Shown here one piece after another: positions 139 through 63,714 of a stretch of 64,000 nucleotides of DNA; the first letter of the stretch is position 1; each line of letters begins with the position of its first letter. Source of the DNA: Dehalococcoidia bacterium (lineage in GTDB: Bacteria; Chloroflexota; Dehalococcoidia; Lucifugimonadales; UBA3495); NCBI GenBank assembly GCA_963668585.1, contig OY764869.1, positions 1,867,106-1,931,105 of the forward strand, read 5' to 3'. Position numbers and translations under genes: made by a program. The notes beneath the pieces were generated by a model. The model had not been told where the DNA came from. It did not search any database and was given only the letters and a program-made list of their open reading frames with translations.

Positions 139-176
139 CGCCGGGCCCGGTCAGCCGGCCCGGCGGCGCGGTTTTT
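139..176 (+). terminator. Rho-independent terminator candidate
   Basis: 9-bp GC stem CGCCGGGCC (139-147) / GGCCCGGCG (157-165), followed by a TTTTT run at 172-176. Confidence 0.6.
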
Positions 177-205
177 GTGCGGCAAGGGAAGGAGCGGACG
201 CATCG

Positions 206-335
206 GGGCCATTCGATTATCCCGGCAAAAGGCAATTGCTGATGTCGGAACGGTTCGCTGCTCACCGTCCGCTCGTCCTTCGACAGGCTCAGGATGAGCG
301 GGCTACCTAATCAATGGTCAATAGTCCAATGGCCC
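206..335 (+). repeat. Copy A of a ~130-nt TIR-bearing intergenic repeat element (MITE/REP-like)
   Basis: Ends GGCCATTCGATTAT (207-220) and ATAGTCCAATGGCC (321-334) are inverted repeats. The central hairpin is CCGCTCGTCCT / loop TCGACAGGCTC / AGGATGAGCGG (269-301). It aligns along its whole length with copies at 31837-31967 and 63111-63240. Confidence 0.8.
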
Positions 336-376
336 TGGCGGACGCAAAGCTGCCCCCGTCCTGTGCGCCGGCGCTC

Positions 377-385
377 TGATAGAAT
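377..385 (+). promoter_or_regulatory. Extended -10 promoter candidate (TGaTAGAAT)
   Basis: TGATAGAAT lies 62 nt upstream of ATG 447. No convincing -35 is present. The hexamer starts 50 nt after the AATGG anchor of repeat copy A, the same register as at copies C and D. Confidence 0.4.
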
Positions 386-1463: not shown

Positions 1464-2939
1464 CTAATCCGCGGCCTCCGCGGGTTCCCAGCGGAGGACG
1501 GGCCGTCTTGCCGCCGTGGCTTCGTCGAGGCGGGATACCGGCGTGGTGTGCGGGGCATGCTGCACCAGTTCCGGTTGGGTCGTCGCTTCGGCATCGATGG
1601 CCCTCAGCGCGTCGATGAAAGCGTCCAGCGTTTCCTTGGTCTCGGACTCGGTGGGTTCAATCATCAGCGCTTCGTGGACGATCAGCGGGAAGTACATGGT
1701 CGGCGCGTGGAACCCGTAGTCGAGCAGACGCTTGGCGACTTCCAGGCCGCTGACACCGCGTTCGCGTTGCCGGTCGGCGGAGAACACCACCTCGTGCATG
1801 CAGGTGCGGTCGTAGGGCAGAGCGTAGATGTCCTTCAGTTCGTGCATGATGTAGTTGGCGTTCAGCACGGCGTTGCCGCTGATTGACAGCAGGCCGGCCG
1901 CGCCCAACGTGCGAATGTAGGTGTAGGCACGCACCAGGACGCCGAAGTTGCCGTGGAATCCGCTGATCTTGCCGATGCTCTGGTCCGGTTCGGAGAGGAT
2001 GAACTCGCCGCTTTCGGTGCGCTCGACCACCGGAGCGGCCAGGTAGGGCGCGAGGATCTCGCCGCAGCAAACTGGGCCGGCCCCGGGGCCGCCGCCACCG
2101 TGGGGCGTGCTGAAGGTCTTGTGCAGGTTGAGGTGGCACACGTCGAATCCCAACTCGCCCAGCTTGGCGCGACCCAGGAGGGCGTTCATGTTGGCGCCGT
2201 CGCCGTACACCAGTCCGCCGCAGTCGTGGACGATCTGGCATACCTCGATAATGTGGCTGTCGAACAGGCCCAAGGTGCTGGGGAGCGTGATCATGACGCC
2301 GGCCAGATCATCACCGGCCAGTTCGCGAAGGGCGTCCAGATCGGTGTTGCCGTCGGCGTCTGAGGGGATGGTCACCACGTCGAAACCGGCCATGGCTGCT
2401 GAGGCGGGGTTGGTGCCGTGCGCGCTGTCGGGAATCCCCATCTTGGTGCGTCCCGAGTCGCCGCGAGCCAGGTGGTACGCGCGCATCATCAGGACGCCGG
2501 CCAGTTCGCCGTGAGCGCCGGCCAGGGTGGCCAGGCTGGTGGCGTCCATGCCAGTAACTTCCGTGAGGAAGTCCTGCAATCGGTACAGCAGATCCAGCGC
2601 GCCCTGCGACTGCTCGGCCGGCTGCTGCGGGTGAATGCCCGCGAACCCAGGGAGGAACGCCACCTCGTCGTTGATTTTGGGGTTGTACTTCATGGTGCAG
2701 GAACCCAGGGGATAGAAGTGGGTGTCGATGCTGAAGTTCAACTGGCTCAGCGAGGTGAAGTACTGCACTACCTCAGGCTCCGAAACCTCGGGCAGGGGCA
2801 GGGATTCGCGCACGTAGGCAGCGTCGGGCAACGGGGCGGCAGGCACGTCCAGCGACGGGGTGATTACGCCCAGGCGTCCGGTCACGCTGCGGTCCATTAG
2901 CATCCTGGTGGTGTCGCGGTTTCCGCCTTTGTTCAGCAT
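1464..2939 (-). CDS. gcvPB: Glycine dehydrogenase (aminomethyl-transferring) subunit 2, P-protein C-terminal half
   Basis: 491 aa with hallmark GcvPB blocks (FYPLGSCTMKYNP, NLHKTFSTPHGGGGPG). Confidence 0.95.
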   Translation of the reverse strand: MLNKGGNRDTTRMLMDRSVTGRLGVITPSLDVPAAPLPDAAYVRESLPLPEVSEPEVVQYFTSLSQLNFSIDTHFYPLGSCTMKYNPKINDEVAFLPGFAGIHPQQPAEQSQGALDLLYRLQDFLTEVTGMDATSLATLAGAHGELAGVLMMRAYHLARGDSGRTKMGIPDSAHGTNPASAAMAGFDVVTIPSDADGNTDLDALRELAGDDLAGVMITLPSTLGLFDSHIIEVCQIVHDCGGLVYGDGANMNALLGRAKLGELGFDVCHLNLHKTFSTPHGGGGPGAGPVCCGEILAPYLAAPVVERTESGEFILSEPDQSIGKISGFHGNFGVLVRAYTYIRTLGAAGLLSISGNAVLNANYIMHELKDIYALPYDRTCMHEVVFSADRQRERGVSGLEVAKRLLDYGFHAPTMYFPLIVHEALMIEPTESETKETLDAFIDALRAIDAEATTQPELVQHAPHTTPVSRLDEATAARRPVLRWEPAEAAD

Positions 2940-3090
2940 TTCGTGTTTTGTCTCCGGGGGAGTATGTTCAAATGATGGAAGGGGTGGTCGATCAAATCAG
3001 TTTGGTGTCCGGCGAAACGGACGGGGCAGTTGGTTCGCGGGTCCGTCCGAGTTCGGATTTGTGTGAGGTGATCATCATGATGCCATTCGT

Positions 3091-3672: not shown

Positions 3673-4998
3673 TTACCCGATTTCCGCCAGGGCGGCGACC
3701 AGAGCATCGATTTCGGCGCGAGTATTCATCTCGGTGACGCAGAGCAGCATACCGTTGTCGTAACGGTCGCTCACGTCCAGGCCGCCCAGGATGTTGCGTT
3801 CCATCAGTTGGCGGTTGACCTTGGCTGGGGCCGTGGGACAGGTGACCACGAATTCCTGGAAGAACTCTCCGGACTGTGGCCTCGAATAGCCGTCCAGGTT
3901 GGCGATGGCGTTGGCGGCGTAGTGGGCTTTGTGGTAGCAAAGCTCCGCGACCTCGCGCAAACCATGCCGTCCCATGGCTGCCAGGTATATCGACGATGCC
4001 AGGGCGTAGAGGGCTTCGTTGGTGCAGATGTTGGACGTGGCGCGCTCGCGGCGAATGTGCTGTTCGCGAGTCTGCAGAGTGAGGACGTAACCGGTACGGC
4101 CCTCGGTATCAGTGGTGCGCCCCACCAGTCGGCTGGGCATCTGGCGGATGTACTGCTGCTTGCAGCTGAAGAGTCCCAGGTACGGCCCTCCGAAGGACGG
4201 CGGTATGCCCAGCGGCTGGCCTTCGCCCGTCACGATGTCGGCGCCGAAATCGCCGGGCGGGGTGAGCATACCCATGGCCAGCGGGTCGGCGGACACCACC
4301 AGCAGGGCGCCGTCGGCGTGCGCGGCTTGGCCCAGTCCCCTGAGGTCGTCCAGTTCACCGTAGAAATTCGGATACTGGGCGACGATGCCGGCGGTGGCTT
4401 CGGTGACGGCGGCGCCGGCATGCTCGGCGGGCACGATGTCAAGGGTGATGCCCTGCGCCTGGCAGTAAGTGGCAATGACCTGGCGATAAGCGGGCGCCAC
4501 GGTGTCGGCGACGATGACCTGTTGGCGTCGCGTGACGCGGCAGGCCATCAGGACGGCCTCGGCGACGCTGGTTGCGCCGTCATACATACCGGCATTGGCG
4601 ACCTCCATTCCATAGAGGGCGCTGATCATGGTCTGGAACTCGAAGATCACCTGCAGCGTGCCCTGGGAAACCTCGGGCTGGTAGGGCGTGTAGGCGGTGA
4701 GGAACTCGCCACGGGTCATGATGGCCTTGACGATTGACGGGATGAAGTGATGGTAGGAGCCGGCGCCAAGGAACGACGGCCCGCTGGCGAGGGAGCGGTT
4801 GCGGCCGGCCAGTTCGCCCAGTTCCCGCTGGATTTCAAGCTCCGACATGGGCGGCGGAAGCTCCAGCGTGGGATTGCGGAAACTGTCCGGAATGTCCACA
4901 AACAGGTCGTCGATGTTCTGGAGACCGATGGCGGCCAACAGATCGTCCTGCTCAGCGGAGGTGTTGGGGATGTAGTGAGACTGGAAGTTAGTGACCAT
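3673..4998 (-). CDS. gcvPA: Glycine dehydrogenase (aminomethyl-transferring) subunit 1, P-protein N-terminal half
   Basis: 441 aa with typical GcvPA sequence (FLGAGSYHHFIPS, TAYTPYQPEVSQGTLQ). Confidence 0.95.
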   Translation of the reverse strand: MVTNFQSHYIPNTSAEQDDLLAAIGLQNIDDLFVDIPDSFRNPTLELPPPMSELEIQRELGELAGRNRSLASGPSFLGAGSYHHFIPSIVKAIMTRGEFLTAYTPYQPEVSQGTLQVIFEFQTMISALYGMEVANAGMYDGATSVAEAVLMACRVTRRQQVIVADTVAPAYRQVIATYCQAQGITLDIVPAEHAGAAVTEATAGIVAQYPNFYGELDDLRGLGQAAHADGALLVVSADPLAMGMLTPPGDFGADIVTGEGQPLGIPPSFGGPYLGLFSCKQQYIRQMPSRLVGRTTDTEGRTGYVLTLQTREQHIRRERATSNICTNEALYALASSIYLAAMGRHGLREVAELCYHKAHYAANAIANLDGYSRPQSGEFFQEFVVTCPTAPAKVNRQLMERNILGGLDVSDRYDNGMLLCVTEMNTRAEIDALVAALAEIG

Positions 4999-5221: not shown

Positions 5222-6418
5222 TCAGGCCAGGACGCGGTAACGGTAGCTGGATTCCAGCAGGTCGCCTTCGGCGAATCGGGTGAAGCGCAGAGGGGAGAGG
5301 TCTACGTCGCGGGCGCGACCCTCCACCACCAGTTCGGCGACAGACTTGCCGATGGCCGGGGAAAGCTTGAACCCGTGCCCACTGAAACCGATGGCACAAT
5401 ATAGTCCGGGTATGCTTGGAACCGCGTCCAGTATGGGGTGCCAGTCGGGCGTGGTGGTGAACAGGCCGGACCAACCGCCGCGGTAGTATGCGTCAGCCAT
5501 GCCGGGGACTCGGCGGGCCAGTTTGGCCCGAGCCGATGCCGCCTCCGCAATGTCCACACCCTGAGGATACGCTTCCGGGTCGGACTGCTCGTCGTCGTCG
5601 CCGAAGCCCATGGTGGTGAAATTGGAGCCGTCGGGCCGGAATGAGAAGGACTGGCTGATGTCGCCAACCGTTGGATGGTGCGGCACCACCTCCACGGGAC
5701 GGGCCACGGTGGCAACCTGGTGGCGCACCGGAACGAGGGGAGCATCGACGCCCACGCCGGCAAGCACCTGCCTGGACCACGGACCGGCCGCGACTATGAC
5801 GGTATCGGTGGCTATGCGGTCGCCGTTTGCCAGGACAACGGCCTGCGCGCGCCCGCTGCTGGTATCAATCCCCGAGGCAGGGCTGCGGGTTACGATCCGG
5901 GCACCAGCCTCCTGGGCTCGGGCGGCGTAGGAAACGGTGACCTGGTAGGGATCGGCGTAGCCGGATTCCGGTTCCCAGGCGGCCCGCTCGTCATCGTAAA
6001 GAGTCACCATGGGGGCCAGGCGGGCCAGGTCGTCCCCGGACACCAAAGAGGACGGCACCCCCAACTCCTGCTGCATGGCGACGTTGCGCTCCAGCCCTCC
6101 CTGGTCTGCTTCGTTGACCACCACGAGATAGCCGGTATTCACGAAGCCTGAAGTGCCGCCGACTCTGGCATCAAAATCCGCAAAGACCTGCAGGCTCTGC
6201 CACGCCAGTTCGGTGGTTATGGGGTTTGAGTAGTGCATCCGGCAGATGGCCTGGGAGCGGCCGGTGCTGCCGGAACCGAGCACGTCGCGTTCCAAGAGGA
6301 CGGTGTTGGATACGCCAAGCTGGGCCAGATGGTACTGGATCGCACAGCCGATAACGCCGCCGCCGATAATGACGGCGTCGGCGGTTTGAGCGGCGGATCG
6401 GGCGGGGTTACTCGCCAT
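5222..6418 (-). CDS. FAD-dependent oxidoreductase, DAO family (sarcosine oxidase beta / glycine oxidase-like)
   Basis: N-terminal dinucleotide fold DAVIIGGGVIGCAIQYHL. The 398-aa length and C-terminal GFSGHGFKLSPAIG block are typical of DAO-family enzymes. Confidence 0.88.
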   Translation of the reverse strand: MASNPARSAAQTADAVIIGGGVIGCAIQYHLAQLGVSNTVLLERDVLGSGSTGRSQAICRMHYSNPITTELAWQSLQVFADFDARVGGTSGFVNTGYLVVVNEADQGGLERNVAMQQELGVPSSLVSGDDLARLAPMVTLYDDERAAWEPESGYADPYQVTVSYAARAQEAGARIVTRSPASGIDTSSGRAQAVVLANGDRIATDTVIVAAGPWSRQVLAGVGVDAPLVPVRHQVATVARPVEVVPHHPTVGDISQSFSFRPDGSNFTTMGFGDDDEQSDPEAYPQGVDIAEAASARAKLARRVPGMADAYYRGGWSGLFTTTPDWHPILDAVPSIPGLYCAIGFSGHGFKLSPAIGKSVAELVVEGRARDVDLSPLRFTRFAEGDLLESSYRYRVLA

Positions 6419-6848: not shown

Positions 6849-7023
6849 CAGAACCTCTAGCCATCGGGCCGCGGTGAAGTGGTTGGCCCGTGAGGCGGTG
6901 AATTGTCGCGAATATCATAACATATCGCCCCCCGCCGATTTGATGCGGCGAGTGTTCCCGAGGTGGGTCCGTGTCCATCGGATGGCCTATGCCCGGCGTC
7001 CGGGGTCATGATTGGCGAGCATG

Positions 7024-7140
7024 GTATTCGATTACCCGCGTAACCGGCCACCTGTGGGCAGAAGGATTCTTCGCGCGCTGTCCGCTCGTCCTTCGGCTGG
7101 CTCAACGGGGCTGATGGATGGAAATATCCGAAAGCTCCGG
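7024..7140 (+). repeat. Degenerate copy B of the intergenic repeat element
   Basis: GTATTCGATTACCCG left end, and GATTCTTCGCGCGCTGTCCGCTCGTCCTTCG aligning with the consensus GATTCCCTGCTCACCGTCCGCTCGTCCTTCG. The right arm of the hairpin and the right end are eroded. Confidence 0.45.
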
Positions 7141-7162: not shown

Positions 7163-7220
7163 GCGTGGCGGTAAGTTATTCTGACCGCCACGCCATCCGG
7201 TCTGGTTTCGGACCGGATGG
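7163..7220 (+). promoter_or_regulatory. Two abutting 10-bp hairpins in the 5' region of the Gfo/Idh/MocA gene
   Basis: GCGTGGCGGT (7163-7172) / ACCGCCACGC (7184-7193), immediately followed by CCATCCGGTC (7193-7202) / GACCGGATGG (7211-7220). They end 25 nt before the TTG start at 7245. Confidence 0.4.
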
Positions 7221-28464: not shown

Positions 28465-28503
28465 CCGCTCAGGACGATCCTGCGATGGGCTCAAGATGAG
28501 CGG
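28465..28503 (+). repeat. Solo, variant copy (E) of the repeat-element hairpin core
   Basis: CCGCTCA...GGGCTCAAGATGAGCGG shares the GGCTCA-GATGAGCGG right half and the CCGCTC left end with the cores at 269-301 and 31901-31931. It lacks the flanking TIR arms. Confidence 0.4.
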
Positions 28504-28544: not shown

Positions 28545-28574
28545 TTGACACCCTGCTCCGGTAGTAAATATACT
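28545..28574 (+). promoter_or_regulatory. Sigma-70-type promoter candidate for yvcK-glmS
   Basis: TTGACA (28545-28550), an 18-nt spacer, then TATACT (28569-28574), 82 nt upstream of ATG 28656. Confidence 0.45.
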
Positions 28575-31664: not shown

Positions 31665-31836
31665 CTGCGGCGCGAGCGCGGACGCAGTCGATTATGCCCT
31701 GACTCGGGCGGTCTGCCGGCGGTAGAGTGGCCCGACGTGTCCGTGGGGGATCCTGAGCACGCTCCAGGCAGGGGGTTGATCTTGCCAGCGTAAACCTTCC
31801 GAATCCGTGGGGAAACCTGTGGCAAAAATGTGCCCA

Positions 31837-31967
31837 GGGCCTTTCGATTATCCTGGCTATAGGCATTTGCCGTTGCCGGAACGATTCCCTGCTCACCGTG
31901 CGCTCGTCCTGCGACAGGCTCAGGATGAGCGGACCAAGCCAGCGACCGACAATAATCGAATGGCCCC
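31837..31967 (+). repeat. Copy C of the ~130-nt TIR-bearing repeat element
   Basis: GGGCCTTTCGATTATCC left end, AATAATCGAATGGCCCC right end (inverted repeats), and hairpin core 31901-31931 identical in loop and right arm to copy A. Confidence 0.8.
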
Positions 31968-32010
31968 GAAAACGTGCCGCCGTTGACGGTGTACAGGATT
32001 GACGGATGCC

Positions 32011-32016
32011 TATACT
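32011..32016 (+). promoter_or_regulatory. -10 hexamer candidate (TATACT) for the glycosyltransferase gene
   Basis: TATACT lies 50 nt after the AATGG anchor of copy C, the same register as copies A and D, and 24 nt upstream of the AGGAGG RBS at 32040-32045. Confidence 0.35.
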
Positions 32017-32055
32017 ATATCGGTTACGATATTCGACGCAGGAGGCGGAACCGGG

Positions 32056-62922: not shown

Positions 62923-63110
62923 CGATAACCTCCCTTCGGGCATCCCGTGCCGGTGGTGTCCAATAATCTGCGGGATGATAGCACGGTGGGTTCCGCACTG
63001 TCATTGGCCGCGCTTCACGCCTCATGTCCCTGGCGAACCGACCTTTTGTCCCGACTCCGGGGCGCGGATGCTGCCGCGATGTTGTCCGTTCTACGGCGGC
63101 GTGGTGATGC

Positions 63111-63240
63111 AGGGTTTATCGATTGGCCTGGCGGCAGGCAATTGCTGTTGCCGGAACGATTCCCTGCTTACCGTCCGCTGATCCTGAGTCTGTCGAAGGA
63201 TGAGCGGACTACCTCGTTTATCGTCAACAATCGAATGACG
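63111..63240 (+). repeat. Copy D of the ~130-nt TIR-bearing repeat element, with an inverted hairpin core
   Basis: The flanks align with copies A and C in direct orientation. The core at 63175-63207 (CCGCTGATCCT / GAGTCTGTCGA / AGGATGAGCGG) matches the reverse complement of the copy A core at 30 of 33 positions. Confidence 0.75.
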
Positions 63241-63281
63241 CTGCGGTCAATGTGGGCCGCGAATCAGGCGCGCGCTCACGA

Positions 63282-63290
63282 TGCTATACT
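63282..63290 (+). promoter_or_regulatory. Extended -10 promoter candidate (TGcTATACT)
   Basis: TGCTATACT lies 41 nt upstream of ATG 63331. The hexamer starts 49 nt after the AATG anchor of copy D. Confidence 0.4.
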
Positions 63291-63330
63291 GAATCGGGTT
63301 CTTCCCATATCTTTTGTTCAGGTGCCCTCA

Positions 63331-63714
63331 ATGCCACTCTATGTAATGCTCGCAAATTACTCTGGACGGGGACGGCGCATGGGCCATGACAACCCCAATC
63401 TCCTCAGTGAGTCCGCCGCCGCCGTCGAAACCACCACCAGCAAGGTTCTAACCCAGTATGCCGTGTTGGGTCGCTACGACTTTGTGATTATCACCGAAGC
63501 GGTGGACAATCAATCCGCGGTCCGCCTTTCGCTTGAATTGGGTGTCCGCGCCGGGCTGAATATCGAGACGCTGCCGGCGCTGCCGATTGGTGTCCTCACC
63601 GACGAGGAGCACATCAGCCTGCTGAGAGATGCCGCCGTTGCGATGAATCTTCCGGCCAGTCCGGACGAAATCGCAGATAACGAGGATTGGCGGCTGCCCG
63701 ACGAACCCGATTAG
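63331..63714 (+). CDS. GYD domain-containing protein
   Basis: [12 protein letters not shown]...[27 protein letters not shown] matches the GYD-family pattern. The track ORF start at 62947 runs over the repeat element and was trimmed. Confidence 0.78.

What the first reader, a model, noticed from the sequence alone, without database searches (positions are those of the whole stretch)
328..385. All repeat copies are co-oriented with the downstream gene, and the three full copies sit in a fixed ~50-nt register upstream of -10-like hexamers
I used the T of the right-end AATG as an anchor and measured to the next good -10-like hexamer:
- Copy A: anchor 330, TGaTAGAAT hexamer at 380, distance 50 nt.
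- Copy C: anchor 31961, TATACT at 32011, distance 50 nt.
- Copy D: anchor 63236, TGcTATACT hexamer at 63285, distance 49 nt.

The intervening 44-45 nt are not conserved between copies, and none has a recognisable -35. The solo core E is followed by a full TTGACA-18-TATACT promoter at 28545-28574.

Every copy, including the degenerate one at 7024-7140, has the same orientation as the next gene and ends about 90-110 nt before its start (447, 7245, 32056, 63331).

A-T-rich hexamers are scarce in this GC-rich DNA, so a 1-nt-precise register in 3 of 3 copies suggests one of three things. The element may supply an upstream activator or UP-like site for -35-less promoters, the true element may extend to the promoter, or insertion may be targeted to promoter-proximal DNA.
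Basis: seen in the sequence. Interest (0 to 1): 0.6.

Follow-up and report, generated by a model that had tools for sequence, protein, structure and literature searches.

The report
Miniature transposon that lands beside promoters
The repeat is a 134-bp non-coding "jumping" DNA element (a MITE with insertion-sequence ISAs1-type ends) whose copies, here and in related sponge-associated bacteria, mostly sit with one end about 41 bp upstream of a gene's -10 promoter box, which suggests a bacterial transposon that aims at the upstream edge of promoters.

Summary

**What the repeat is.** It is a 134-bp MITE with 17-19-bp terminal inverted repeats (CAGGGCC...GGCCCTG). It is flanked by 9-10-bp target-site duplications, the hallmark of ISAs1-family transposition.

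**Does the register generalise?** Yes. Across 18 independent insertions in six Dehalococcoidia/SAR202 genomes and four inverted-repeat subfamilies:
- 10 have a strong outward-facing -10 hexamer 40-42 bp beyond an element end. The same flanks predict 0.39 (P about 2e-11). For ends not used to form the idea, the count is 7 against 0.32 expected.
- 4 more are weak or 1-2 bp off.
- 4 have none.

**Orientation.** Either end can face the promoter (mutL locus L198/L204), so co-orientation is not a rule.

**Promoter age.** The promoters pre-date the element. Element-free orthologues keep the same -10 blocks at three loci: TreT, the 3-hydroxyisobutyrate-dehydrogenase-like gene, and a 69-aa gene.

**Interpretations.**
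- "The element extends to the promoter" is refuted.
- "Insertion is targeted to promoter-proximal DNA" is the best reading. The target decamer lies at about -53 to -44.
- An activator role for the end repeat is not excluded.

The parts
204..337 (+). MITE copy A, 134 bp. Left end CGGGGCCATTCGATTATCC, right end CAATAGTCCAATGGCCCTG. Internal hairpin core at 269-301.
   Evidence: Alignment of copies; inverted-repeat pair scan gives exactly 134 bp; fold z-score -5.1.
194..203 (.). Left target-site duplication of copy A, GCGGACGCAT. Its partner is 338-347, GCGGACGCAA (9 of 10 identical).
338..347 (.). Right (promoter-proximal) target-site duplication of copy A.
377..385 (+). Extended -10, TGaTAGAAT, 42 bp beyond the end of copy A. 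This is the promoter of the NAD-binding 3-hydroxyisobutyrate-dehydrogenase-like gene (start 447).
   Evidence: Weight-matrix score 8.4 bits. Conserved as GCTCTGtTAGAATtACGC in the element-free orthologous locus L207, 94% aa identity. RNA contigs of the gene begin at 433/440 and none covers 162-259 or 309-432.
139..175 (+). Hairpin CGCCGGGCCCGG-tcag-CCGGCCCGGCG followed by a T-run. Likely terminator of the upstream gene, about 25 nt before copy A.
   Evidence: Sequence; inverted repeat I24 arm; the upstream RNA contig ends at 161. Not called by the strict scan.
7020..7140 (+). Degenerate MITE copy B, about 121 bp, with eroded ends. Not in register: nearest -10-like hexamer TAAGTT at 7172, gap about 31.
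28466..28503 (+). Solo hairpin core ('E'). It has no terminal repeats and is not a copy of the transposon.
   Evidence: The core alone occurs in more than 118 loci of many phyla.
31835..31968 (+). MITE copy C, 134 bp. Ends CAGGGCCTTTCGATTATCC and CAATAATCGAATGGCCCCG.
31825..31834 (.). Left target-site duplication of copy C, AAAATGTGCC. Its partner is 31969-31978, AAAACGTGCC (9 of 10 identical).
   Evidence: Removing the element and one duplicate restores colinearity with the element-free TreT orthologues (reasoning from the sequences).
31969..31978 (.). Right (promoter-proximal) target-site duplication of copy C.
31990..32018 (+). Pre-existing TreT promoter block: TGTACA (31990-31995), 17 nt, TACTAT (32013-32018).
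   Evidence: The same block, GTGTACA-N15-T(A/T)TACTATAT, lies about 45 nt before the start codon in more than 10 species without the element.
63110..63243 (+). MITE copy D, 134 bp, with more diverged ends (CAGGGTTTATCGATTGG and CAACAATCGAATGACGCTG). Its hairpin core (63175-63207) is inverted relative to A and C.
   Evidence: (I1).
63282..63290 (+). Extended -10, TGcTATACT, 41 bp beyond the end of copy D. This is the promoter of the GYD-domain gene (start 63331).
   Evidence: Score 8.7 bits. RNA contigs of the gene start at 63320-63375 and none covers 62961-63319.
62975..63004 (-). Separate promoter, ATGACA-18-TATCAT (with TG), of the divergent luciferase-like monooxygenase gene. It lies about 130 nt from the left end of copy D, so it is not in register.
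   Evidence: RNA contigs of that gene end at 62957-62960 in four runs.

Best explanation
**What it is.**
- The repeat is a non-autonomous DNA transposon (MITE) of 134 bp.
- It has ISAs1-type ends: inverted repeats beginning CAGGG, and 9-10-bp target-site duplications.
- It carries a GC-rich hairpin module that also occurs on its own in many bacteria.

**What it does not do.**
- It does not bring a promoter with it. It has been inserted next to promoters that already existed.

**How it most likely works.**
- The transposase that moves it, and its sister MITE families in these Dehalococcoidia, prefers one place: the upstream edge of a promoter.
- After insertion, the element end lies 40-42 bp before the first base of the -10 hexamer.
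- The duplicated target decamer was therefore at about -53 to -44 relative to the transcription start, roughly one helical turn upstream of the -35 position.
- The element's ends are alike, so it can land in either orientation.

**Shown versus inferred.**
- Shown: the anatomy (terminal repeats, duplications), the fixed gap, and the prior existence of the promoters.
- Inferred: the ruler. No sequence motif is shared by the target decamers or the 30-nt spacers. The most likely ruler is therefore promoter-bound RNA polymerase, or the DNA distortion it or the easily melted -10 creates, read by the transposition complex.
- Inferred: the site works as a safe harbour that damages neither a gene nor its core promoter.
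For: **Anatomy.**
- Eight full copies are exactly 134 bp with 15-17 of 19-20 matching end-repeat bases.
- Duplications include GCGGACGCA(T/A), AAAA(T/C)GTGCC and CGCTGATT(T/C), and are perfect (GCCGGACGG, CCGGTTTGC) in the sister families.
- The literature gives ISAs1 inverted repeats as 14-22 bp starting CAGGG with a 10-bp direct repeat (PMC11946415).
- ISArsp11 has IRL CAGGGCTGATGCAAAGTCG (PMC6305408). This matches the L006 MITE end CAGGGCCTGTGCAAAGTC at 15 of 18 positions.

**Register.**
- 10 strong -10 hexamers fall at gaps 40-42 among 31 element ends. Expected from other offsets in the same flanks: 0.39 (P about 2e-11).
- Ends not used to form the hypothesis give 7 against 0.32 expected (P about 5e-8).
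- Six of twelve in-register or weak hexamers carry the TGn extension. L006 copy 2 has a perfect TTGACA-17-TATGAT.
- The control of 124 solo cores is flat.
- The AT-rich peak lies on one side of the target only.

**Either end can face the promoter.**
- L198/L204 left end faces mutL. L006 copy 1 uses its left end.

**The promoters are older than the insertions.**
- TreT.
- The 3-hydroxyisobutyrate-dehydrogenase-like gene.
- A 69-aa gene with TTGACA-17-TA(G/C)G(C/A)T in L220 with the MITE and L221 without it.

**Other.**
- Downstream genes are functionally unrelated.
- In contiguous, unselected sequence, 5 of 6 insertions are in register: window A, C and D but not B, plus both MITEs in about 31 kb of OZ241987.
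Against: - No transcription start was mapped. RNA data are low-depth assembled contigs. They fit at A and D, but at C they show RNA or contaminating DNA upstream of the predicted start. One contig start (31970) is an assembly break also seen in a DNA run.
- Four of 18 insertions are not in register (B, L199, L202, L016) and four are weak or 1-2 bp off.
- The cognate transposase was not found in any locus read. Its ISAs1 assignment rests on ends and duplication length only.
- No empty-site allele was seen in the source metagenome runs, so mobility is inferred, not observed.
- At mutL the element-free relative has TAGACA where the element-bearing genome has TAACAT. One promoter may therefore have changed after insertion.
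- Selection after random insertion could contribute to the pattern.
Confidence: 0.55

Rival explanations
1. Retention by positive selection. Insertion is essentially random, but a copy whose terminal repeat ends up centred near -62 acts as an upstream activating module (a bound protein, bent DNA or an UP-like effect) for weak promoters that lack a -35. Such copies are preferentially fixed.
For: - Most in-register promoters lack a -35 and rely on TGn-extended -10 boxes.
- The AT-rich part of the end repeat (ATAATCGAA) would be centred at about -62, the classic class I activator position (established knowledge of CRP at lac; a lead only).
- At mutL the -10 is better in the element-bearing genome than in the element-free relative.
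Against: - Downstream genes are unrelated in function, so a common benefit is not obvious.
- Copies with perfect duplications, hence young, are already in register next to complete promoters.
- Three promoters are unchanged between genomes with and without the element.
- Under random insertion, neutral copies elsewhere in intergenic DNA should outnumber in-register ones. They do not: 4 of 18 are out of register.
Confidence: 0.2
2. Purifying selection in a compact genome. Insertions survive only in the narrow gap between the upstream gene or terminator and the upstream limit of the next promoter. Surviving copies therefore pile up at the closest tolerated distance, without any targeting.
For: - At A, L018 and L203 the free space upstream of the element is only 0-25 nt. 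In L203 the duplication contains the stop codon of the upstream gene.
- The TreT orthologues show a conserved block reaching about 45 nt upstream of the -10.
Against: - At C and D about 170 nt of non-coding DNA was available upstream, yet the elements sit at the same 41-42 bp.
- Selection sets a minimum distance, not a 3-bp-wide peak.
- Solo hairpin repeats in the same kind of intergenic DNA show no peak.
Confidence: 0.12
3. The conserved unit is a cis-acting structured RNA (leader or small RNA) or a longer element that includes the promoter.
For: - Strong predicted fold (z about -5 on the + strand).
- A G-U pair in the core stem that would be a mismatch on the other strand (sequence).
- Other copies of the family appear inside RNA contigs.
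Against: - Duplications bound the 134-bp unit.
- The copy before mutL lies antisense to transcription.
- There is no Rfam family match.
- Copies A and D are not covered by RNA contigs.
- The fold is explained by the terminal inverted repeats plus the hairpin.
- The spacer is orthologous to element-free promoters.
Confidence: 0.03

Closest known systems
ISAs1-family insertion sequences and MITEs derived from them (e.g. ISArsp11 of Arthrobacter; ISAs1 of Aeromonas salmonicida)
   Same: - Terminal inverted repeats of 14-22 bp beginning CAGGG, and direct repeats of about 10 bp (PMC11946415, PMC6305408).
- The sister MITE in L006 matches the ISArsp11 end at 15 of 18 bases.
   Different: - No transposase gene: 134 bp, non-coding.
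- The window family shares only CAGGGCC with curated ends.
- In the papers found, no ISAs1 member is described as inserting at a fixed distance from promoters (limited search).
Correia repeat-enclosed elements (Neisseria MITEs) and other promoter-associated bacterial MITEs
   Same: Small elements with terminal inverted repeats that lie close to gene starts and can influence transcription.
   Different: - From general knowledge: Correia elements duplicate TA and carry promoter hexamers within their own ends.
- Here the promoter lies 41 bp outside the element and pre-dates it.
REP / BIME / REPIN elements moved by RAYT transposases
   Same: The internal 33-nt GC-rich hairpin core resembles a REP. 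It occurs alone hundreds of times and in either orientation.
   Different: The 134-bp unit has terminal inverted repeats and target-site duplications, which REPINs lack. No RAYT was examined.
Position-specific integration next to bound transcription machinery: yeast Ty3 (TFIIIB, Pol III start sites), Ty1, S. pombe Tf1 (Sap1), Dictyostelium TRE elements. In bacteria, Tn7 at attTn7 and CRISPR-associated transposons (about 50 bp from the target).
   Same: - It works like them: insertion at a fixed distance from a protein-marked site.
- In compact genomes this gives a harmless landing place upstream of genes.
   Different: - Different enzymes: a DDE IS-type element, not a retrotransposon or Tn7-like system.
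- No targeting protein or guide is known.
- The marker would be an ordinary sigma-70-type promoter.
- Membership is not claimed.
IS elements that activate genes by outward promoters or hybrid -35 boxes (IS1, IS2, IS5, IS10 and others)
   Same: A mobile element sits immediately upstream of a gene's promoter region.
   Different: The element end is 41 bp from the -10, too far to supply a -35. Promoters are intact in element-free relatives.

Membership tests
MITE (non-autonomous bacterial DNA transposon) | Short, non-coding unit | tested here: met
   All full copies are 134 bp. There is no ORF of its own, and all copies are intergenic.
MITE (non-autonomous bacterial DNA transposon) | Terminal inverted repeats | tested here: met
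   CAGGGCCWTTCGATTAT / ATAATCGAAWGGCCCTG, 15-17 of 19-20 positions matching.
MITE (non-autonomous bacterial DNA transposon) | Target-site duplication directly flanking the ends | tested here: met
   9-10 bp, 9 of 10 identical at A and C, degraded at older copies. Perfect 9-bp duplications in sister families.
MITE (non-autonomous bacterial DNA transposon) | Presence/absence polymorphism at orthologous sites | tested here: met
   Element-free orthologous sites for C, A, and both L220 copies in L221. No empty allele within the source metagenome.
MITE (non-autonomous bacterial DNA transposon) | A full-length IS with the same ends that supplies the transposase | tested here: inconclusive
   None found in about 1.6 Mb of fetched loci.
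ISAs1 family (derived element) | Inverted repeats of 14-22 bp beginning CAGGG | tested here: met
   Ends begin CAGGG (CGGGG or CAAGG in some worn ends). Definition from PMC11946415.
ISAs1 family (derived element) | Direct repeats of 8-10 bp | tested here: met
   9-10 bp. 10-bp direct repeat reported for ISAs1 members.
ISAs1 family (derived element) | End sequence similar to a curated member | tested here: inconclusive
   The L006 sister MITE matches ISArsp11 IRL at 15 of 18. The window family shares only the first 7 bases.
ISAs1 family (derived element) | ISAs1-type DDE transposase in the same genome | not tested
REP/REPIN (RAYT-mobilised) | Hairpin unit(s) without terminal inverted repeats or target duplications | tested here: not met
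   The 134-bp unit has both. The inner hairpin core alone may be REP-like, but this was not tested.
Correia-type MITE | TA duplication and promoter hexamers inside the terminal repeats | tested here: not met
   The duplication is 9-10 bp of varied sequence. The -10 lies 41 bp outside the element.
Structured regulatory RNA | Match to a known RNA family, and constant orientation with respect to transcription | tested here: not met
   No Rfam hit at gathering score. The copy before mutL is antisense.
UP element / class I activator site | A/T-rich DNA at -40 to -60, or a defined activator site in helical phase with the promoter | not testable with these tools
   DNA from -54 to the -35 position is ordinary flank, not conserved. 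The AT-rich part of the end repeat would lie at about -62 to -72. No binding protein is known.

The most novel reading that the evidence does not exclude
Promoter-bound RNA polymerase holoenzyme, or the promoter complex geometry set by the -10, is the molecular ruler for an ISAs1-type DDE transposase.
- This would be the first bacterial counterpart of Ty3/Ty1-style integration next to the transcription machinery.
- It would give the transposon a genome-wide set of safe landing sites.
- It would make its copies natural markers of active promoters in uncultured bacteria.
Probability: 0.35. Interest if true: 0.85.

Novelty: new variant of a known kind. Interest (0 to 1): 0.72.

Why it matters
- **A rare kind of site choice.** Bacterial transposons that choose their site by position relative to a generic promoter, rather than by a DNA sequence, a guide RNA or a dedicated attachment site, are not part of the described repertoire as far as my knowledge and a limited literature search go. 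A 3-bp-wide insertion window about 54-45 bp upstream of transcription starts would imply direct read-out of the promoter complex.
- **Safe spread in dense genomes.** It would explain how a MITE can spread in a gene-dense 3.7-Mb symbiont genome without damage.
- **A testable system.** It would be a simple experimental system for studying transposase-polymerase interplay.
- **Practical use.** Copies of such elements would flag promoters (here mostly -35-less, TGn-extended -10 promoters) in uncultured Chloroflexota, for which no promoter maps exist.
- **Annotation.** It corrects the tempting idea that the repeat is a regulatory module of a regulon.

Tried and rejected

**Pattern scans.**
- The central-arm pattern found nothing in genome contigs. 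The window's species is not in that collection; the best TreT identity is 78%.
- The left-arm pattern found only L018.

**Look-ups of the window's own proteins.**
- Exact-protein look-ups of window proteins were not on record.

**Family and literature searches.**
- Rfam gave no family.
- A literature search for the hairpin sequence found nothing.

**RNA and DNA reads.**
- RNA contigs were used as a proxy for 5' ends but are too sparse.
- One apparent 5' end (31970) is an assembly break also present in a DNA run.
- A search for empty-site alleles in the source DNA runs found none.

**Search for the parent IS.**
- No full-length parent IS was found in fetched loci. The best candidate pair of ends, in L071, encloses an oxidoreductase gene, not a transposase.

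**Ideas rejected.**
- The element carries the promoter.
- The downstream genes form a regulon.
- The hairpin core sets the register.
- A shared motif exists in the target decamers or spacers.
- AT-rich DNA lies symmetrically on both sides of the target.

Full report
**1. The observation**

The three full copies align end to end.

| Copy | Hexamer | Position | TG before it | Anchor T | Offset |
|---|---|---|---|---|---|
| A | TAGAAT | 380-385 | 377-378 | 330 | 50 |
| C | TATACT | 32011-32016 | none | 31961 | 50 |
| D | TATACT | 63285-63290 | 63282-63283 | 63236 | 49 |

- A -10 weight-matrix scan of 130 nt on either side of the anchors shows that offset 49-50 is the only place where every copy has a strong hexamer.
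- Hexamers of that quality occupy only about 0.1-0.2% of window positions.
- A two-hexamer consensus scan finds no -35/-10 promoter at these sites, which confirms "-35-less".

**2. What the repeat is**

- It runs from CAGGGCC to GGCCCTG and is exactly 134 bp in all eight full copies found: window 204-337 and 31835-31968, plus L018, L198, L200, L203, L204 and L205. Copy D (63110-63243) is more worn.
- The ends are 17-19-bp inverted repeats.

Directly outside the ends lie target-site duplications of 9-10 bp:
- A: GCGGACGCAT / GCGGACGCAA.
- C: AAAATGTGCC / AAAACGTGCC.
- L203: CGCTGATT(T/C).
- Older copies have more degraded duplications.

Ends beginning CAGGG with a direct repeat of about 10 bp are the published hallmark of the ISAs1 family (PMC11946415; ISArsp11 in PMC6305408).

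The element is therefore a MITE moved by a DDE transposase, probably of ISAs1 type.
- No parent IS was found in the DNA I could read.

The inner 33-nt hairpin is a separate module.
- It occurs alone in more than 118 loci from Chloroflexota, Novosphingobium, Elusimicrobia, Acidobacteriota and others.
- Summed over all organisms in the sponge metagenome, it reaches about 340 times the depth of this genome's unique sequence.
- It is inverted in copy D (I1).

**3. More copies**

The window's species is absent from the searchable collections; the best TreT identity is 78%. Pattern scans nevertheless recovered the same family in five other Dehalococcoidia MAGs:
- L018.
- L198 to L205.

A blind search for CAGGG-ended inverted repeats with flanking duplications found three sister subfamilies with different end sequences:
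- L006 892-1022 and 3940-4071. Their end CAGGGCCTGTGCAAAGTC matches ISArsp11 at 15 of 18 positions.
- L018 7798-7942.
- L206 777-938 and L220 16024-16208.

 None of these searches used flanking sequence.

**4. The register generalises, and either end can face the promoter**

The gap is the number of bases between the last base of the element and the first base of the hexamer.

| Insertion | Gap | Hexamer | Note |
|---|---|---|---|
| A | 42 | TGaTAGAAT | |
| C | 42 | TATACT | or 44 for TACTAT |
| D | 41 | TGcTATACT | |
| L018a | 41 | TGgTAAGAT | |
| L203 | 40 | TGaTATAAT | |
| L201 | 41 | TACAAT | |
| L198/L204 | 41 | TGaTAACAT | at the LEFT end, before mutL |
| L006-1 | 42 | TACACT | left end |
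| L006-2 | 42 | TTGACA-17-TATGAT | |
| L206 | 41 | TGaTATGAT | |

Weak or slightly shifted:
- L018b: TAACCT, gap 41.
- L200/L205: CATACT, gap 41.
- L051: TTGACA-17-AACAAT, gap 39.
- L220-2: TTGACA-17-TAGGCT, gap 39-40.

None in register: B, L199, L202 and L016.

Statistics and controls:
- Matched control using other offsets in the same 31 flanks: 10 hits at gaps 40-42 against 0.39 expected (P about 2e-11).
- Leaving out the three copies that suggested the idea: 7 against 0.32 expected (P about 5e-8).
- The 124 solo hairpin cores show no peak.
- The AT-rich peak is present on one side of the target only.
- In contiguous, unselected DNA, 5 of 6 insertions are in register (window; about 31 kb of OZ241987).

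**5. Orientation**

- In the window all copies point towards the next gene. B and D lie between divergent genes, where that is automatic, so only A and C are informative.
- In L198/L204 the element lies between two + strand genes (a 145-aa gene and mutL) in the opposite orientation. L200/L205 is also anti-oriented.
- For the 134-bp family, the right end faces the in-register promoter six times and the left end once or twice. This is not significantly uneven.
- Co-orientation is therefore not a property of the family.

**6. The promoters are older than the insertions**

*TreT (copy C).* More than ten species without the element keep GTGTACA-N15-T(A/T)TACTATAT at the same distance from the start codon.
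- The conserved -10 is more likely TA(C/A)TAT, at window 32013-32018.
- Deleting the element and one duplicate makes the window colinear with those orthologues.

*The 3-hydroxyisobutyrate-dehydrogenase-like gene (copy A).* The closest element-free locus, L207 (94% aa identity), keeps GCTCTGtTAGAATtACGC.

*The 69-aa gene beside L220-2.* The element-free relative L221 keeps TTGACA-17-TACGAT.

*mutL.* This comparison is ambiguous: TAGACA against TAACAT.

Together with the duplications, these comparisons refute "the element extends to the promoter". They also show that the element did not bring the -10.

**7. RNA**

Sponge metatranscriptome runs hold a 95-99% identical strain, but only as low-depth contigs.
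- At A, the upstream contig ends in the terminator hairpin (161) and gene contigs start at 433/440.
- At D, gene contigs start at 63320-63375 and nothing covers the element.
- The divergent gene's contigs end at 62957-62960, which fits the ATGACA-18-TATCAT promoter.
- At C, contigs start at 31970 and 32005, upstream of the predicted start. 31970 is also a contig start in a DNA run, so it is an assembly break.
- Other copies of the family do occur inside RNA contigs.

The RNA data are compatible with the promoters but do not prove them.

**8. Mechanism**

*Shown:*
- A DDE-type MITE.
- A gap of 40-42 bp to pre-existing -10 boxes.
- Either end can be proximal to the promoter.
- There is no shared motif in the target decamers or in the roughly 30-nt spacer.
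- The downstream genes are unrelated in function.

*Inferred:*
- With the -10 at -12 to -7, the duplicated target lay at about -53 to -44, one helical turn upstream of the -35 position.
- Nothing in the sequence between could guide the enzyme. The likeliest ruler is therefore the promoter complex itself, meaning bound RNA polymerase or the distortion associated with the -10.
- The site would serve as a safe harbour.

*Rivals:*
- Fixation of copies whose end repeat, centred near -62, stimulates weak promoters.
- Mere survival in the narrow gap tolerated by compact intergenic regions. The latter does not explain C and D, where about 170 nt were free.

**9. Comparison and novelty**

- As an object, it is a new member of a known kind: a MITE with ISAs1-type ends.
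- Its site choice at a fixed distance from an ordinary promoter is not described for ISAs1 or other bacterial elements in the papers I could find or to my knowledge.
- It works like Ty3, Ty1 or Tf1, or like Tn7/CAST distance-ruled integration, without being a member of those families.
- I rate it a new variant of a known kind.

**Limits**

- The sample is small (18 insertions).
- No transcription starts were mapped.
- No transposase was identified.
- No experiment was done.

Noticed in passing
window 269-301, 28466-28503, 31900-31932, 63175-63207; L001-L118: The 33-nt GC-rich hairpin core (CCGCTCGTCCTTCGACAGGCTCAGGATGAGCGG) is a module of its own. An exact 22-mer from it occurs in more than 118 loci of Chloroflexota, Novosphingobium, Elusimicrobia, Acidobacteriota, Myxococcales, Babeliaceae and others. 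Its summed depth in the sponge metagenome is about 340 times that of this genome's unique sequence. It sits inside MITEs with different ends and in either orientation (flipped in copy D). What spreads it across phyla is unexplained.
   Followed up: partly
window 31979-32020 and L119-L138 at about 2740-3000: The TreT (trehalose synthase) genes of many Dehalococcoidia share a conserved upstream block: CCAAATCGG, about 12 nt, GTGTACA, 15 nt, T(A/T)TACTATAT. In the window the TTGACGG motif is repeated 16 nt apart (31983 and 31999). This looks like a conserved operator or promoter of unknown regulator.
   Followed up: partly
L018 7798-7942; L006 892-1022 and 3940-4071; L206 777-938; L220 16024-16208: Sister MITE families with CAGGG ends but different inner repeats (for example GTCATTCCGGCGAAAGCCGGAATCC hairpins). 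They have perfect 9-bp duplications, so they were probably active recently in related SAR202 genomes.
   Followed up: partly
L199 (reverse strand) 5974-6130; L202 (reverse strand) 4594-4834: Composite or nested copies. In L199, a second ISAs1-like end (CAGGGCTTGTGCAAAGTCG) abuts the duplication of the first element. L202 is a 240-bp form with two hairpin cores. These are the copies that are not in register.
   Followed up: no
L207 about 1570-1790: The element-free orthologue of locus A has a direct repeat of about 30 nt (ATCC(T/G)GTAGCCGC..GGGTTTC) upstream of the conserved TGtTAGAAT promoter.
   Followed up: no
window 62957-63004 (minus strand): RNA contigs of the luciferase-like monooxygenase gene end at 62957-62960 in four runs, just downstream of an ATGACA-18-TATCAT promoter with TG. 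This is a rare case where the sparse RNA data agree on a likely 5' end.
   Followed up: partly
L203 7805-7816 and 7951-7959: The target-site duplication of this copy contains the stop codon (TGA) of the upstream 467-aa gene. The insertion therefore regenerated the stop codon and lies 3 nt after the gene.
   Followed up: no
The window's own proteins are not retrievable by exact look-up, so the 3.73-Mb genome could not be surveyed.
   Followed up: yes
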